10,998 bases of DNA from Promethearchaeota archaeon (lineage in GTDB: Archaea > Asgardarchaeota > Lokiarchaeia > Sigyniarchaeales > SOKP01): positions 1 through 10,998 of the forward strand of contig JAHLWH010000116.1 in NCBI GenBank assembly GCA_019058015.1. Direction: 5' to 3'. A program made the position numbers and the translations under genes. The notes under the pieces are model-generated. The model searched no databases. It saw nothing but the letters and a program-made list of their open reading frames with translations, and had not been told where the DNA came from. Numbering within the stretch: the stretch's first letter is position 1; each line of letters begins with the position of its first letter. Positions 1,363-7,781 of the stretch are shown here, piece after piece.

Positions 1363-2441
1363 TCATAATAGAAATACTGGTTCTTTATCATCTGGAATTT
1401 CTTTAAAGAACATACCAATACCTAAAATCTTAAATGTATCTTGAACATTTATATTTTCTTTTGCAGAAGTTTCTATAAAGGAACATTTCAATTCAGCGGC
1501 TTTTTTTTCTCCGTCTTCAGTAGATACTTGTCTCTTATCCTCTAAATCAATTTTATTTCCAATTAAAACAAAAGGTATTTCGCCTATCTCACTTTTCGTA
1601 TCGTTATACCAGTAATCAACCCTCTCAAACGTTTCTTTTCTTGTAACGTCATATACAATAAACACAGCCTAAGTATTGGAATAATATGCATGTCTAACAC
1701 GATTGAAAAGCTCTTGACCTGCTAAATCATAAATTATGAATCTAATTAATGAATCTTTAAATCCTTGAATAAAATATTTCGTAGTAGTTATCGATATCCC
1801 AAGTGTTGGCCTATAATCTGCAGAATATTGTTTTTTAACAAATTGAGTCACAAGAGTTGTTTTTCCAACCCCCGAATCACCGAGAATTATTAGTTTAAAA
1901 AATTTTTCTTTCTTTTTTCTTTCTATCTGAAATTCATTGTCTCCTTTTTTTTCAGCCGCTTTCATCAAATCTCCTTCAAATGTTTCACCAATACCAAATT
2001 TAGGAATTGTTAAGGTATTATATTTTAAATCAAATTTATTTTCCAATATTTGGGCTACTTTCTCAACAAGTAAATAACAATAAGGTAAAGCAAATTTTGT
2101 ATCCAATGTGAAGTAGGTTATTATGAGAACAATTGCCTCTGGACCTGCCTCTAAGAAGATTAAACGATGATCTTTTGTTTAAATGTTATTAAACCTAATT
2201 CTCCAATTCTATAATCTTTAGATATTTTTCTTGACATCGGTTCAATTGAACTAAGAAATGCACCATAAATTTCTTCTCTCTCAGACTCCTCTAATCCATC
2301 ATCTAATAATTCAGACAAGGTGTATTTACTTATTAAAAGTCCTTGACGATTATAGATCATTATAGCATCTACTTCACTTATCACCTCAATAAAATTCTTC
2401 ATCAGTTCTAAAAGCAACTTTTCCTTCTGCAATACTTTCAT
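1363..2441 (-). pseudogene. Roadblock/longin-like domain fused to Rab-like small GTPase (~359 aa when joined), interrupted twice
   Basis: Three ORF-track pieces join. One extra base near 2171-2183 gives ...GLITFxTKDHRLIFLEAGPEAIVLII...; an in-frame TAG at 1669-1671 sits in HAYYSNT*AVFIVYDVT. G1 GDSGVGKT, G2 YRPTLG, G3 DLAGQE, G4 NKID and G5 ETSAK are all intact. N-terminus VDAIMIYNRQGLLIS is roadblock-like. Confidence 0.85.
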
Positions 2442-2672: not shown

Positions 2673-3359
2673 ATGAGTAAAAGTTCAGAAATCATAAAAA
2701 ATTATTTAAGTCAAGGGAAAAAAGTATTAACAGAATTTGAATCTAAAGAACTATTGGAAAAAATTGGAATACCAATTACAAAACAAAAATTAACCTCCGA
2801 TAAAAATGATGTTGTGAGATTTGCCGATGAAATAGGTTATCCTGTTGTTATGAAACTCATGGCAGATGATGTTGTTCATAAGTCTGATGCTGGAGCTGTG
2901 AAACTAAATCTTCAAAATAAAGAAGAGATCGAAAAAAGTTTTGATGAATTAATGAATATCCCATCAAAATCAGAAAAAAAAATTAATATACAAAAAATGG
3001 CTGATGAACCTATTACTGAAATAATTATTGGTATGACAACAGATCCACAATTTGGTCCCGCTCTGATGTTTGGAATAGGAGGTATCTTAGTTGAATTACT
3101 GGAGGATGTCTCATTTCGAATTGCACCAATTGAAAAATTTGACGCAAATGAGATGATTCATGAAATAAAAGGTTTTCCTTTGCTTGATGGGTTCCGAGGT
3201 AAGCCAAAAGCCGACATAGACGCAATTATTGATGCTCTATTAAAGGTTTCTGATTTAGTTATTCAAAACCCCGAGATCTATGAGATGGATCTTAACCCTA
3301 TTTTTGTATATAACTCTGGGATAGTTTGCGTAGATGCCCGAATCATCTTAAAGGATTAA
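2673..3359 (+). CDS. acdB: Acetate--CoA ligase (ADP-forming) beta subunit, stand-alone ATP-grasp
   Basis: LTEFESKELL, IGYPVVMK, phospho-His motif VHKSDAGAV, DPQFGPALMFGIGG, DLNP, VDARI; 228 aa. Confidence 0.93.
   Translation: MSKSSEIIKNYLSQGKKVLTEFESKELLEKIGIPITKQKLTSDKNDVVRFADEIGYPVVMKLMADDVVHKSDAGAVKLNLQNKEEIEKSFDELMNIPSKSEKKINIQKMADEPITEIIIGMTTDPQFGPALMFGIGGILVELLEDVSFRIAPIEKFDANEMIHEIKGFPLLDGFRGKPKADIDAIIDALLKVSDLVIQNPEIYEMDLNPIFVYNSGIVCVDARIILKD
2938..3359 (+). repeat. Direct repeat copy 1 (acdB 3' part); copy 2 at 7184-7605
   Basis: Both copies begin GTTTTGATGAATTAATGA with an exact offset of 4246 bp and no indels. About 37 mismatches in 422 bp by manual count. Looser similarity continues ~50 bp past the stops (TATTTTTCCTAATTTT). 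Confidence 0.97.
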
Positions 3360-3527
3360 ATTTTATATTTTAATTTAAACTGTTTTTATTTTTCCTAATT
3401 TTTGTTTGTGAAGTAATTTAAAAGTTAATTTCAAGATTTTCATAAAAGAAATTAATTTTTTTCATCTCTTTTTGTTATTAAATTTAAGTTTTGAAATAAA
3501 TTGAATGTTTTGACAATTATCCTTTAA

Positions 3528-3614
3528 CAGTTACTTAAAATCTGGACATCTTTAGATATCCTCTTTATTTGACCTGTAACTGAAGGTCATAACCGCCCCA
3601 TATAGGGATAGTCA
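3528..3614 (-). ncRNA. Candidate TnpB omega-RNA (right-end RNA) scaffold with pseudoknot
   Basis: Directly 3' of the tnpB remnant on the minus strand: stem UGACUAUCCC/GGGGCGGUUA (3590-3614), hairpin UGACCU-UCAGUUAC-AGGUCA (3570-3589), hairpin GGAUAUC-UAAA-GAUGUCC (3544-3561), and GUAACUG (3528-3534) complementary to the hairpin loop. The 5' end may extend into tnpB. Confidence 0.65.
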
Positions 3615-3839
3615 ATTTGATTTTATATTATATATATTATTGTTCCGGTATTTCACAATGTTTCTTGACGCATTTAAATCGGAGTCCAATTTTAAACCGC
3701 AATAGGGACAGGAGAATCGTTTACCTGTTCTGGAACCGATCTTTCCGCAACAAGAACATCTCTATGATGTATATTTTACCGGTACTTTTTGAAATTTAAT
3801 GGAGTTTAAATCGCATTGAAGTTTATATATATACCAGTT
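3612..3839 (-). pseudogene. tnpB: TnpB (IS200/IS605 or IS607 family RNA-guided nuclease) C-terminal remnant
   Basis: Manual translation: NWYIYKLQCDLNSIKFQKVPVKYTS*RCSCCGKIGSRTGKRFSCPYCGLKLDSDLNASRNIVKY... This matches the TnpB YTSQxCxxCG...FxCxxCG...DxDxNAxxNI zinc ribbon/RuvC-III signature. TAG at 3762-3764 replaces the usual Gln and the N-terminal part is missing. Confidence 0.9.
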
Positions 3840-3870
3840 TCAAGGGAGGTTAAACTCTAAGCCCCCTTGA
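3840..3870. other. GC-rich imperfect hairpin at the tnpB truncation point
   Basis: TCAAGGG-AGGTTAAACTCTAAGCC-CCCTTGA: perfect 7-bp outer stem, extendable with GGTT/AGCC. Confidence 0.55.
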
Positions 3871-4073
3871 GCTGAATCAATTGATATTGAGCTTTAAATT
3901 ATGAATCAATACAAAATTAGAATAAATCATTAATATAAATACCGACCAAGAGAATTGAGAATAAGAGCCAAACCCCCATATAATTACGAATTATCTAGGA
4001 GATTTAAATGTTTCGTTTTTGATAATATAATTAAGGATCAAAAAATTTAGTACTTACAAAAAATTTAATAAAA

Positions 4074-4811
4074 TTGACCATAGAAGACACTAAAGAAATC
4101 ATAGGAATAGTTCGTAAATCAAAGTGGAATTCCGTAAGAGAGTTTTTAAAGAAAATTATTAGTCAGACTTTGGATCAAAAAATTGGTTATATTCTTGTTG
4201 CCTTTGATGTCCGAGTAAAAGGATCAAAGAAACTTATATTAAGTGATATCATTAAAAATCCAGACCAGATAAATATATTGGATAAAATTCAAGATTTCAG
4301 TATGATGTCCCTTTACCATTCGGATGGATTAACTCATAATCATCTTAATATAACTAAAGATGATGAAGTTATCATCGTTATAGCTAAGTATCTGGGAGGA
4401 AATATTAAATATTCTGGTCTTTTTGATTTTTCTATCCAAATAGATAGTTTCAATAATCCATTTTTCACAAATGCTTCGGGAAAAACTATTAATTGTGCAG
4501 ACATAATCAATCTTGTTAATCCAAATATCACAGAACATACTATGATTAATGAAAAGAAAAAAATAGATTTAGATTTGTTTGTATTTGAAAAGTTTTCAGG
4601 AAAAAAAGCTATTTGGGGTGTAAAAGAAACTAATTCATTTACAAAATGGAAGGAGAATGCCGAAAAAGAGTATAAAAAATTATTTGGTGAGAGAAAGATT
4701 GCATATCGGGAGGGTAAGATAACTAAAGATTTTAAAATTTTTCTTGAAGGATTCTTAGATGGAAGAAAAATATCAGAAATTTTATTAAAAAGACTTTTTA
4801 AAAATAAATAA
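4074..4811 (+). CDS. Hypothetical protein, 245 aa, with two ~25-aa C-terminal repeats
   Basis: Long open frame in AT-rich DNA with a TTG start (uncertain). Repeats FEKFSGKKAIWGVKETNSFTKW and YKKLFGERKIAYREGKITKDFKIF. Confidence 0.8.
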   Translation: MTIEDTKEIIGIVRKSKWNSVREFLKKIISQTLDQKIGYILVAFDVRVKGSKKLILSDIIKNPDQINILDKIQDFSMMSLYHSDGLTHNHLNITKDDEVIIVIAKYLGGNIKYSGLFDFSIQIDSFNNPFFTNASGKTINCADIINLVNPNITEHTMINEKKKIDLDLFVFEKFSGKKAIWGVKETNSFTKWKENAEKEYKKLFGERKIAYREGKITKDFKIFLEGFLDGRKISEILLKRLFKNK

Positions 4812-5145: not shown

Positions 5146-5577
5146 TTATATATTTTCTGGAATCGGATCTATTACTTCAATTTCTGTAATTTGCTTAAAA
5201 GATTTATCATGAGTGCAAATTTTTTTAATATTATAACTCTTTAAAAATGAAATAATAGTTGCATCCCGACCACCTATGCCTAAATGGGAATAGTTGCATA
5301 ATTCAGAAAAAATTGAATCTAAATCCTCAAAATTTAAATTTTCATAATACAGAGCCATAGTTGAAAATAACTCCCACTTCTTTTTTGCAAAGGGAACTCC
5401 AAGTCTTTTTACAAGATAATGTATAACTTCGATCATTACGATTAAATTTACTGCCAAAATAGATGTTTCATAAATCTCGCTAAAGTAATTTTTAATATAT
5501 GGATGTTCTGGAGTAGTTTCATCAAAAAGATAAATCCAAAAATTACTATCAAGGAAAATTATCCTTTCATATTCCAT
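5146..5577 (-). CDS. vapC: PIN-domain VapC-family toxin
   Basis: Four acidic PIN positions in FLDSNFW, MIEVIHY, GGRDATI and THDKSF; 143 aa; overlaps the upstream antitoxin. Confidence 0.92.
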   Translation of the reverse strand: MEYERIIFLDSNFWIYLFDETTPEHPYIKNYFSEIYETSILAVNLIVMIEVIHYLVKRLGVPFAKKKWELFSTMALYYENLNFEDLDSIFSELCNYSHLGIGGRDATIISFLKSYNIKKICTHDKSFKQITEIEVIDPIPENI

Positions 5578-6303: not shown

Positions 6304-6747
6304 CTACAAGTTAATTTTCCAACCTTGCTCTAATTTTTGGATTTTATTTTTTTCCAAGAGATTATTAATATATTTTTTGTATTTCTTTCCCTTACCTTTA
6401 TCATAGATGATAATTCCTGTTGAAATAGCTTCTAAAGCGATTAAATGGTGGTTAGTAATCATTATTTCAAATTCAGTTGGGCTGTATAAGAAGAAATCTA
6501 TACCACCTGATGTAATAAGTTGTATTTGATATAATCTATCAAAATAATCTTCTTTTAATGAGTTTGTAACAATTAAAAGATCTAAATCGCTTCTGTAATT
6601 AAATTTCCCCTTGGCAGAAGAGCCAAAAAGAATAATAAATTCCGCAGAATATAAATTAAAAAAACTTTCCAAAAATTCTTTTAAATTTTTTATTTTTGGG
6701 TGGTCTTTTAATTTTCTTTCAATTTCAGTTAATTTTATCTCTTGCAA
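6304..6747 (-). CDS. Minimal nucleotidyltransferase (MNT), partner of HEPN
   Basis: IILFGSSAKG...SDLDLLIV (GSx10DxD) plus third Asp in GIDFFLY; TTG start overlapping the HEPN stop. Confidence 0.92.
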   Translation of the reverse strand: MQEIKLTEIERKLKDHPKIKNLKEFLESFFNLYSAEFIILFGSSAKGKFNYRSDLDLLIVTNSLKEDYFDRLYQIQLITSGGIDFFLYSPTEFEIMITNHHLIALEAISTGIIIYDKGKGKKYKKYINNLLEKNKIQKLEQGWKINL

Positions 6748-7111
6748 AATCCATTACCTCGTTTGCAAATTTTATAGCGTCTTGTGCCTGCTTTTTTGAG
6801 AATTTTTCAGAAGGAAAACCACTCGTAAAGGCATCAGGATAACGTGTTGAAATGTAATATAAATTTAAAATTTTACAATTCAATTCAATTGATGGAGGAA
6901 TATCTACTGTTTTTTTCAATTCTTTCACCAAATCCACAAGATCATGACCCCACATAATAATATTAAATTTTTCACCAATCGCTTTAAATGCTTTTTCAGC
7001 AGTTTGCTGACCAAGAAAACAGCTCCACGCATAATTTCCAGAATTTAATAAATTCTTTGCGGCTCTTAAGTCAGATTCGGCTTGATTTAACCAATCTTGA
7101 CTTCTATCCAT
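6725..7111 (-). CDS. HEPN-domain protein (archaeal HEPN-MNT pair type)
   Basis: WLNQAESDL, SCFLGQQTAEKAFKA, GHDL, YISTRYPDA; purine-rich GGATGGAG just upstream of the ATG. Confidence 0.92.
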   Translation of the reverse strand: MDRSQDWLNQAESDLRAAKNLLNSGNYAWSCFLGQQTAEKAFKAIGEKFNIIMWGHDLVDLVKELKKTVDIPPSIELNCKILNLYYISTRYPDAFTSGFPSEKFSKKQAQDAIKFANEVMDFARDKIN

Positions 7112-7183: not shown

Positions 7184-7605
7184 GTTTTGATGAATTAATG
7201 AGTATCCCATCAAAATCAGAAAAAAAAATTAATACACTCAAAATGGCTGATGAACCTATTACTGAAATAATTATTGGTATGACAACAGACCCTCAATTTG
7301 GTCCCGCTTTAATGTTTGGAATAGGAGGTATTTTGGTTGAATTACTGGAAGATGTCTCATTTAGAATTGCACCAATCGATAGATTTGACGCAAATGAGAT
7401 GATTCATGAAATAAAAGGATTTCCTTTGCTAGATGGATTCCGAGGCAAACCAAAAGCCGACATAGACGCAATAATTTATACTCTACTAAAGGTTTCTGAT
7501 TTAGTTATTCAAAATCCTGAGATTTATGAGATAGATCTTAACCCCATTTTTGTGTATAATTCTGGGATAGTTTATGTAGATGCCCGGATTATTTTAAAAG
7601 ATTAA
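7184..7605 (+). pseudogene. acdB: 5'-truncated second copy of acdB (direct repeat copy 2)
   Basis: 126/135 aa identical to the C-terminal part of 2673-3359. Lacks the N-terminal ~88 codons including the HKSD His; similarity stops abruptly at 7184. Confidence 0.9.
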
Positions 7606-7781
7606 GATTTATATTTTTTATATTTAAATTCTAACTATTTTTCCTAATTTTCTTCTTGAAGAGATATAAATTCATATATTCAAAAACTAAGCATTTATAA
7701 CGTTTTTCTCATATCTCCAATAATCTTTATAATAAGACGAATTGTTTCCTTAGCCAAGAACTATTTTATTTAGAAAAAAAA

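What the first reader, a model, noticed from the sequence alone, without database searches (positions are those of the whole stretch)
3505..3839. Unannotated dead tnpB with an apparently intact pseudoknotted omega-RNA scaffold: possible orphan guide RNA
Seen: a start-less TnpB C-terminus with a nonsense codon is followed by three hairpins and a perfect 7-bp loop-to-3'-end complement (CAGUUAC/GUAACUG). The G-U wobbles in two stems work only on the tnpB-sense strand, which favours a real RNA over chance palindromes. Established: TnpB omega-RNAs overlap the tnpB 3' end, and their scaffold ends in a pseudoknot next to a guide taken from flanking DNA. Inference: the element end is near 3528, the guide would start UUAAAGGAUAAUUGUCAAAA, and this compact scaffold could be used in trans by an intact TnpB elsewhere. 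It may define an Asgard omega-RNA family.
Basis: partly seen in the sequence, partly recalled or inferred. Interest (0 to 1): 0.8.

Follow-up and report, generated by a model that had tools for sequence, protein, structure and literature searches.

The report
Relic TnpB guide-RNA scaffold, Asgard
This is the broken-off right end of an IS607-type jumping gene in an Asgard archaeon: a dead scrap of its TnpB nuclease gene plus the complete folded guide-RNA scaffold, a real and conserved RNA design of an already known kind, and this copy looks like a slowly decaying leftover.

Summary
On the minus strand, window 3839-3612 is the last 75 codons of a tnpB gene with one TAG nonsense codon (PF07282, E 6e-17). 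Window 3616-3527 folds into three hairpins plus a 7-bp loop-to-3'-end pseudoknot.

It is the 5'-truncated right end of an IS607-family element. An intact copy, 95% identical over 300 nt, lies on contig C29 of the same genome, with a serine-recombinase tnpA and a 786-aa tnpB.

The structure covaries across relatives. In 45 sequences, 89.8% of cells pair against 33-44% when partners are slid. The pseudoknot pairs in 96.1% of cells, with both-side changes in 6 of 7 pairs. G-U outnumbers A-C 209 to 48, so the fold belongs to the tnpB-sense strand.

Homology stops at 3527 against several different flanks, so the guide would start at 3526.

Three stem-loops plus a guide-adjacent pseudoknot is the published IS607 TnpB reRNA design (PMC10711439), and stand-alone omega RNAs acting in trans are published (PMC10691335). 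This scan met the same kind in other Asgard genomes.

This copy has no left end and carries pair-breaking changes, and it is no better conserved than its flanks. Expression could not be tested. Verdict: new member of a known kind, probably a relic.

The parts
3612..3839 (-). tnpB pseudogene remnant: the last 75 codons plus the TGA stop, with no start codon. Homology to the intact copy begins at 3825. The remnant carries an in-frame TAG at 3764-3762.
   Evidence: Translation. PF07282 at E 6.1e-17. 95% DNA identity to G000:C29:4614-4913. In the coding part there are 13 nucleotide differences, 8 synonymous and 5 non-synonymous codons including the nonsense codon.
3527..3616 (-). omega-RNA (reRNA) scaffold of about 90 nt: three stem-loops plus a pseudoknot, ending in GU at the transposon right end.
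   Evidence: Covariance model R1 scores 99.6 bits here against 101.3 bits for the intact copy. Fold. Covariation.
3590..3614 (-). Hairpin A, with a conserved CUAUAUG-type loop. This copy has an A-C mismatch at 3609.
   Evidence: In one search, helix 1 pairs in 90.1% of cells and 10 of 10 pairs show both-side changes. G-U outnumbers A-C 105 to 14. The mismatch is shown.
3570..3589 (-). Hairpin B. Its 8-nt loop carries the 5' arm of the pseudoknot (3582-3576).
   Evidence: In one search, helix 2 pairs in 94.1% of cells and 4 of 5 pairs show both-side changes.
3544..3561 (-). Hairpin C. Its 3' arm is part of the conserved motif UGUCCAGAUUU (3548-3538), which also occurs inverted in the left ends of full elements.
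   Evidence: In one search, helices 4 and 5 pair in 85.7% and 77.5% of cells. The motif in the window is shown. The inverted copy in the left end is shown.
3528..3534 (-). Pseudoknot 3' arm GUAACUG, one base before the element end.
   Evidence: In one search, helix 3 pairs in 96.1% of cells and 6 of 7 pairs show both-side changes. This helix was not part of the model that made the alignment.
3507..3526 (-). Predicted guide, taken from flanking DNA immediately after the right end.
   Evidence: Homology to other copies stops at 3527. Contig loose ends lie at 3527 in runs X1 and X14. Guide length and use are inferred by analogy.
3826..3879 (.). Unrelated short repeat that abuts the truncation point of tnpB.
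   Evidence: 80-84% matches in G002 contigs C30, C45 and C225. Loose ends at 3823 and 3879 in run X1.

Best explanation
Window 3527-3825 (minus strand) is the 5'-truncated right end of an IS607-family insertion sequence of a Lokiarchaeia-type Asgard archaeon. Full elements have this order: a left end starting GUGU.., a serine-recombinase tnpA, a large tnpB of about 780 aa, an omega-RNA scaffold, and a right end finishing ..GU.

The scaffold is a real RNA on the tnpB-sense strand. It has three stem-loops. The loop of the second pairs with the 7 nt just before the element end, forming the pseudoknot that positions the guide. The guide is read out of the flanking DNA, here 3526 downwards.

In a full element the TnpB-omega-RNA complex would cut sites that carry a TAM followed by the flank sequence (homing and retention). 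That step is inferred by analogy with ISXfa1, ISFba1 and ISDra2.

The window copy lost its left end, tnpA and about 90% of tnpB, so it cannot move and encodes no protein. Its scaffold is still near-intact and 96.5% identical to that of the intact C29 copy. If it is transcribed, it could load that TnpB in trans. The evidence nevertheless fits a neutrally decaying relic better than a maintained guide. My odds are about 0.2 that it is used and about 0.8 that it is a relic.
For: Shown:
- The remnant is a TnpB C-terminus.
- An intact copy lies on C29 and C58 of the same genome. It has a Resolvase plus MerR-HTH tnpA and a 786-aa tnpB. D540, E683, D763/D765 and three of the four zinc-finger cysteines (C739, C742, C755) are invariant in 23 homologues, and the fourth, C758, is nearly so. 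The predicted fold matches Cas12f and TnpB structures at probability 1.0.
- The structure covaries. In A1 (13 sequences, plain MAFFT alignment) 88.9% of cells pair against 30-44% when slid, and 0 of 500 shuffles reach this. In A2 (45 sequences) 89.8% pair against 33-44% when slid, and the pseudoknot pairs in 96.1% of cells.
- The fold is strand-specific: 209 G-U cells against 48 A-C cells.
- The boundary is at 3527, seen against at least five different flanks.
- The family is spread in the order: R1 gives 94 hits in 12 of 41 genomes.
- Relic status: there is no left-end motif near 3826-4300. The window has an A-C mismatch at 3609 and L116 has a C-U mismatch at 3598. The scaffold differs by 1.1-2.2% between populations, against 1.4-1.9% in the dead coding part and 0.7% in the left intergenic region.

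Inferred: the guide length, the TAM, cleavage and homing.
Against: - No RNA data exist: no RNA run holds the stretch. Transcription, 5' end and processing are therefore unknown.
- The motif UGUCCAGAUUU and the terminal GUAACUGU have inverted counterparts in the left end. Part of the sequence conservation, and possibly part of the apparent pseudoknot covariation, may therefore reflect TnpA binding sites in DNA.
- For the pseudoknot alone the strand bias is modest: 10 G-U against 3 A-C.
- Sequences in A2 are kin, so the cell counts are not independent events.
- Five of the 50 sources searched gave no R1 hit at E 0.001: L013, L015, L036, L046 and L057. These are four GC-rich relatives and one of the L018/L057 type.
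- A point in favour of use and against 'mere relic': the truncated arrangement persists in contigs of four runs from four studies and in two metagenome contigs. The one scaffold change shared by all of them (3557) is pair-neutral.
Confidence: 0.85

Rival explanations
1. Maintained orphan guide. The fragment is kept because its omega RNA is transcribed and used in trans by the C29 TnpB. The tnpA of that element has lost its nucleophile serine, so the fragment would give the host or the element one extra programmed target.
For: - The scaffold scores as high as the intact one: 99.6 against 101.3 bits.
- Two of its three differences from C29 keep pairing.
- The arrangement persists across populations.
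- The C29 TnpA reads RVLSHKQ where 6 relatives read RVSSHKQ, while the C29 tnpB is intact.
- Stand-alone omega RNAs that work in trans are published (PMC10691335, passages read, citing Altae-Tran 2021).
- Effector-less scaffold copies are common in relatives. Twelve copies with 430 nt or more of upstream sequence were checked: 11 show no TnpB remnant and one (L097) shows only weak fragments.
Against: - There are no expression data.
- The scaffold is not more conserved than the dead coding part or the left flank.
- Pair-breaking changes are present at 3609 and, in L116, at 3598.
- The guide has no second site in its own genome at 2 mismatches or fewer.
- The only outside matches are one family of AT-rich giant-virus-size contigs, where the site is not preceded by GT, and one unrelated contig. 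Both are consistent with chance.
Confidence: 0.2
2. A DNA-level feature only. The conserved hairpins and the loop/3'-end complement are transposase (TnpA) binding repeats of the IS607 right end, not an RNA structure.
For: - IS607-family ends carry subterminal repeats and short inverted sequences shared by both ends (PMC6188088, passages read).
- Here the motif TGTCCAGATTT and an AGTTAC-type word recur inverted in the left ends of 6 elements.
Against: - G-U outnumbers A-C 209 to 48 over the four helices, which only makes sense for one transcribed strand.
- Hairpin A has both-side changes in 10 of 10 pairs with no fixed sequence, unlike a protein-binding word.
- IS607 moves as double-stranded DNA (PMC10711439, passages read), so single-strand hairpins are not needed for transposition.
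- The same three-stem-plus-pseudoknot layout was shown by mutation and rescue to be needed for ISXfa1 TnpB activity (PMC10711439, passages read).
Confidence: 0.04
3. An assembly artefact: the truncated tnpB is a chimeric join at a repeat in the metagenome-assembled genome.
For: The IS is repeated, and the intact copy is itself split over two contigs, C29 and C58.
Against: Single contigs from other runs span 3278-4056 and 3279-4045. Metagenome contigs L116 and L122 carry the same arrangement at 98% and 96% identity.
Confidence: 0.01

Closest known systems
reRNA/omega RNA of IS607-family TnpB, e.g. ISXfa1 of Xylella fastidiosa (Yoon et al. 2023, PMC10711439; passages read)
   Same: - It lies just 3' of tnpB in an element with a serine-recombinase TnpA.
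- It has three stem-loops plus a pseudoknot between a loop and the bases next to the guide.
- The guide is read from the flank beyond a fixed terminal dinucleotide.
   Different: - The host is an Asgard archaeon.
- The TnpB is 786 aa, about twice the usual size, with a helical REC region of about 410 aa.
- Both termini carry GT, not GG.
- No detectable sequence or Rfam similarity.
- This copy has no effector or transposase.
ISFba1 TnpB reRNA with a RAGATH-18 core (Ren et al. 2024, PMC11061315; passages read)
   Same: It is an IS607 TnpB guide RNA that lies outside the coding sequence and contains pseudoknots.
   Different: There is no RAGATH-18 match at E up to 10. The scaffold is about 90 nt against 187 nt.
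ISDra2 TnpB omega RNA (Nakagawa et al. 2023, PMC10097598; passages read)
   Same: A pseudoknot is formed by the bases immediately 5' of the guide. The RNA runs to the right transposon end.
   Different: ISDra2 is an IS200/IS605 element with a Y1 transposase. Its 116-nt scaffold overlaps the tnpB coding end, and it has four stems.
Stand-alone omega RNAs of OMEGA systems (Altae-Tran et al. 2021, as summarised in the introduction of PMC10691335; passages read)
   Same: A scaffold without an adjacent effector sits in a genome that also holds a compatible effector.
   Different: Those are described as evidently mobilised. The window copy is a single truncated end without a left end. The gene-less mini-elements of about 0.4-0.6 kb in G007 and G019 fit that description better.

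Membership tests
IS607-family TnpB reRNA/omega RNA | Lies directly 3' of tnpB on the same strand and runs to the right end of the element | tested here: met
   This holds for the intact copies at C29, G002:C396, G019:C51, G007:C82 and others. In the window it follows the tnpB remnant.
IS607-family TnpB reRNA/omega RNA | Element encodes a serine-recombinase TnpA (MerR-type HTH plus resolvase domain) | tested here: met
   L004 1771-2358 matches PF00239 at E 3e-17 and MerR/HTH_17. TnpA homologues stand beside relatives' tnpB genes. No tnpA is present at the window copy itself.
IS607-family TnpB reRNA/omega RNA | Stem-loops plus a pseudoknot pairing a loop with the bases next to the guide, supported by covariation | tested here: met
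   the pseudoknot pairs in 96-98% of cells, and 6 of 7 pairs show both-side changes.
IS607-family TnpB reRNA/omega RNA | Same dinucleotide at both termini and no target-site duplication (GG in IS607) | tested here: inconclusive
   The right end finishes in GT and the left end starts with GT in 6 aligned elements, so the dinucleotide is GT, not GG. No empty site was found to prove the crossover point.
IS607-family TnpB reRNA/omega RNA | RNA is made and binds TnpB; guide-dependent cleavage next to a TAM | not testable with these tools
   No RNA run holds the stretch.
RAGATH-18-type reRNA (Rfam motif) | Match to the RAGATH-18 covariance model | tested here: not met
   cmscan of window 3300-4100 at E up to 10 lists only two chance hits, mir-932 and snoZ5.
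Stand-alone (effector-less) omega RNA acting in trans | No functional effector gene adjacent, and a compatible effector elsewhere in the genome | tested here: met
   The adjacent remnant is 75 codons with a stop. The C29 TnpB is intact and its scaffold differs at 3 of 85 positions.
Stand-alone (effector-less) omega RNA acting in trans | Evidently mobilised (both ends present, several copies at different sites) | tested here: not met
   There is no left-end motif upstream of the remnant. It is the only such fragment in its genome. The feature is met by mini-elements in G007 and G019.
IS200/IS605 (ISDra2-type) omega RNA | Y1 HUH transposase and single-strand hairpin ends | tested here: not met
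   The transposase of the intact copy is a serine recombinase.

The most novel reading that the evidence does not exclude
The near-intact relic is still transcribed and loads the 786-aa, large-REC TnpB of the C29 element, whose own transposase has lost its catalytic serine. Dispersed orphan scaffolds and gene-less mini-elements would then serve as a scattered guide library for a host-retained nuclease in Asgard archaea. That would be an early, array-free step towards CRISPR-like or TldR-like domestication. The 21-nt identity of this guide to a conserved site in a family of AT-rich giant-virus-size contigs would then be a target and not chance.
Probability: 0.05. Interest if true: 0.75.

Novelty: new member of a known kind. 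Interest (0 to 1): 0.27.

Why it matters
The work gives a covariation-supported secondary structure and a covariance model for the guide RNA of a Lokiarchaeia-type family of unusually large IS607 TnpBs (about 780 aa). It also fixes the right-end boundary at a GT terminus.

In these genomes scaffold copies outnumber nuclease genes: G007 has 27 scaffold hits against 8 protein hits. This helps annotation of Asgard genomes and anyone mining compact guides for large-REC TnpBs.

It does not open a new question. The architecture and the idea of trans-acting orphan guides are both published, and this particular copy is most likely a relic.

Tried and rejected
- Rfam scan of 3300-4100 at E up to 10: only two chance hits.
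- RNA evidence: no RNA holder is listed for the stretch, so expression is untested.
- Empty-site search for the C29 insertion in four same-genus genomes, using both flanks: no usable match.
- The 20-nt guide in metagenome contigs: only occupied copies of the window locus (L116, L122), one virus-like family (7 contigs) and one unrelated contig (L125). No empty site was found.
- The guide in its own genome: only itself at 0 mismatches and two sites at 3 mismatches.
- The guide in viral contigs: one exact hit. It lies in a 325-kb record with terminal repeats and 27-29% GC, with several matches to the TnpB C-terminal domain family (5 above the cut-off) but no R1 scaffold. The site is preceded by AT, not GT. 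I estimate about 0.2 chance matches for such an AT-rich 20-mer, and L125 shows that chance 20-mer hits do occur. I therefore treat this hit as probably chance.
- Orthologous loci in same-genus G004 and G001 share only the ATP-grasp gene and then diverge, so they give no pre-insertion state.
- TAG reassignment as an explanation for the nonsense codon: rejected.
- Test for selection on the scaffold: differences between populations do not distinguish it from the dead coding part or the left flank.
The same segments were then located by computed coordinates.
- The GC-rich subfamily (for example L013, L015, L036, L046) is not captured by model R1. Its analogous pseudoknot was seen only by eye and by the finder.
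- Supplementary files of the cited papers were not seen. They may hold reRNA alignments or archaeal IS607 TnpB clades that bear on novelty.

Full report
**What is there**

On the minus strand, window 3839-3615 reads 75 residues. They contain the CxxC...CxxC zinc ribbon and the D-x-D-L-N-A-S-R-N motif of the third RuvC segment, interrupted by one TAG. Pfam places it in PF07282 (Cas12f1-like TNB) at E 6.1e-17. After the TGA stop (3614-3612) the RNA fold of 3616-3527 gives three hairpins. The energy is -25 kcal/mol, z -2.73, and 4 of 200 shuffles fold as well. The loop of the second hairpin (3582-3576) is a perfect 7-nt complement of 3534-3528.

**Where it comes from**

The same genome (G000, 283 contigs) holds a copy that is 95% identical over 300 nt, at C29:4614-4913. 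It continues into the start of contig C58. That copy is a complete element. It has a 195-aa TnpA with MerR-type HTH and resolvase domains and a 786-aa TnpB-like ORF.

The catalytic D540, E683 and D763/D765 and the zinc-finger cysteines C739, C742 and C755 are invariant in 23 homologues, and C758 is nearly invariant. The AlphaFold model (mean pLDDT 78.5) shows a helical insertion of about 410 residues between WED strands. It matches Cas12f, TnpB and other Cas12 structures at probability 1.0. About 40 clusters of such proteins, mostly about 700-800 aa, exist, and one is named 'Candidatus Lokiarchaeota archaeon' transposase. The nearest genome records are titled 'Promethearchaeota archaeon'. This is therefore an IS607-family element of an Asgard archaeon, and the window holds only its last 299 nt.

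**Boundaries**

Homology between the window and C29 runs from 3825 to 3526/3527 and then stops. Other copies show the same stop against different flanks:
- G002:C302 and G019:C51 break at the same base.
- Contigs of runs X1 and X14 have loose ends exactly at 3527.

The element therefore ends ...GUAACUGU at 3527, and the guide would begin at 3526.

At the other side, 3825/3826 joins the remnant to a different short repeat, which has matches in G002. No left-end motif lies upstream. Both junctions are spanned by single contigs from other runs (X5 3279-4045, X9 3278-4056) and by two metagenome contigs. The truncated arrangement is therefore real. It is also older than the TAG mutation, because L122 still has CAG at that codon.

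**Is the structure an RNA?**

I collected the 3' regions of relatives' tnpB genes from 41 genomes of the order; 20 of the 41 have a protein match. A plain MAFFT alignment of 13 of these gave the following:
- 88.9% of cells paired, against 30-44% when partners are slid.
- 0 of 500 shuffles as good.
- The pseudoknot paired in 97.8% of cells.

A covariance model of the three hairpins only (R1) was then searched in 50 of the loci held. It found 45 matches at E 0.001 or better. Five sources gave none: L013, L015, L036, L046 and L057. On that alignment 89.8% of cells pair, against 33-44% when slid. The pseudoknot, which the model did not know about, pairs in 96.1% of cells with both-side changes in 6 of 7 pairs. 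Examples of the loop/3'-arm pair are CAGUUAC/GUAACUG, CCGUUGC/GCAACGG, CAGUCAG/CUGACUG and CGAUAC/GUAUCG.

G-U cells outnumber A-C cells in the helices:

| Helix | G-U cells | A-C cells |
|---|---|---|
| Hairpin A | 105 | 14 |
| Hairpin B | 4 | 3 |
| Pseudoknot | 10 | 3 |
| Hairpin C | 90 | 28 |

This fits a transcript of the tnpB-sense strand and not a double-stranded DNA signal. The sequences are kin, so these are not independent events, but the slid controls keep the same relatedness.

One caveat applies. The conserved word UGUCCAGAUUU and an AGUUAC-type word recur inverted in the left ends of six elements. This is what IS607-family ends do (PMC6188088, passages read). Part of the sequence conservation is therefore probably a transposase-binding signal that overlaps the RNA.

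**How it most likely works**

The architecture is the one published for IS607 TnpB guide RNA. [quoted passage not shown] The ISDra2 structure shows the same guide-adjacent pseudoknot (PMC10097598, passages read).

By analogy, TnpB binds the scaffold, the flank-derived guide pairs with a target next to a TAM, and cleavage favours retention of the element. Here both termini carry GT (right end ...GU in the aligned copies, left end starting GUGU in 6 elements), not the GG of IS607. The TAM probably contains GT. That is inference: no empty site was found.

**Is this copy used?**

Points for use:
- R1 scores it 99.6 bits against 101.3 bits for the intact copy.
- Only 3 of 85 scaffold positions differ from C29, and two of those keep pairing.
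- A compatible intact TnpB is present. Its own TnpA reads RVLSHKQ where six relatives read RVSSHKQ, so it has lost the nucleophile serine.
- Stand-alone omega RNAs working in trans are published (PMC10691335, passages read).

Points against use:
- It has no left end, so it cannot be mobilised.
- Position 3609 makes an A-C mismatch in hairpin A, and the copy in L116 has a further C-U mismatch at 3598.
- Between populations the scaffold differs by 1.1-2.2%, the dead coding part by 1.4-1.9% and the left intergenic region by 0.7%. That shows no sign of special constraint.
- The guide has no other site in its own genome at 2 mismatches or fewer.
- Its only outside matches are one family of AT-rich, 230-470-kb virus-like contigs, where the site is not preceded by GT, and one unrelated contig. 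I take these as chance.
- No RNA run is available.

I put about 0.2 on use in trans and about 0.8 on a decaying relic.

**Wider picture**

R1 finds 94 scaffolds in 12 of 41 genomes of the order. G007 has 27 scaffold hits against 8 TnpB hits. Many of the scaffold hits sit at contig edges and cannot be judged. Twelve interior copies in G007, G019 and G036 have 430 nt or more of upstream sequence. Eleven of them show no TnpB remnant, and L097 shows only weak fragments. Four of these share a 58-nt left-end segment with the full G019:C51 element, 300-480 nt upstream. They are therefore gene-less mini-elements. They also carry a conserved two-hairpin module just 5' of the scaffold.

This matches what is published for OMEGA systems and what this scan reported in other Asgard genomes.

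**Literature searches**

Searches found no paper in the held library that pairs TnpB with Asgard lineages, other than the aCas1-linked TnpBs of PMC10691335. Supplementary files could not be read.

**Verdict**

The identification is right. The kind is known. This copy is probably a relic. Interest is modest.

Noticed in passing
window 2938-3422 and 7184-7670: The 3' part of the ATP-grasp_5 gene plus 60 nt is directly repeated at 89% identity over 488 nt. The 3.8 kb between the repeats holds the IS relic, an ORF without Pfam match (4074-4811), a PIN gene (5146-5577, minus strand) and an MNT/HEPN pair (6304-7111, minus strand). It looks like an inserted island or a segmental duplication. Same-genus genomes G004 and G001 lack it. 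L116 shows a different order of these pieces.
   Followed up: partly
window 3826-3879 and 3937-4067: Short repeats of unknown nature abut the truncation point. They have 80-97% matches in G002, G004 and own contig C206.
   Followed up: partly
L004 (G000:C29) 1771-2358: The TnpA of the only intact copy of this subfamily reads RVLSHKQ where 6 relatives read RVSSHKQ. The serine-recombinase nucleophile appears replaced by Leu, while tnpB stays open.
   Followed up: partly
L004 1560-1680 and L005 (G000:C58) 47-230: The intact element sits inside a ParE/RelE-like toxin gene that is itself a pseudogene in G000. This is read from translations by eye, with no family search.
   Followed up: no
L084-L100 (G007, G019): Gene-less mini-elements of about 0.4-0.6 kb have a left-end segment, a conserved 5' module with two small hairpins (GAGGAUUUCCCUC and UUCUCAAAUCGAGAA) and the scaffold.
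   Followed up: partly
L110 5499-5519; L117-L124: A 21-nt stretch identical to the predicted guide (plus the last element base) is perfectly kept in a family of AT-rich contigs of 230-470 kb. Its flanks vary among them. The one record searched has several TnpB-domain matches of its own (5 above the cut-off). I read this as probably chance.
   Followed up: partly
window 1363-2106, minus strand: A Ras/Roc-type small GTPase gene is split by a single in-frame TAG (..YYSNT*AVFIVYD..). TAG behaves as a normal stop genome-wide.
   Followed up: partly
G000:C130:4376-6691: A second, divergent element of the same family lies in the own genome. It has 32% TnpB identity, an 842-aa frame, a TnpA with an intact RVSSHKQ, and its own scaffold (43 bits) with a CCGUUG/CAACGG pseudoknot.
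   Followed up: partly
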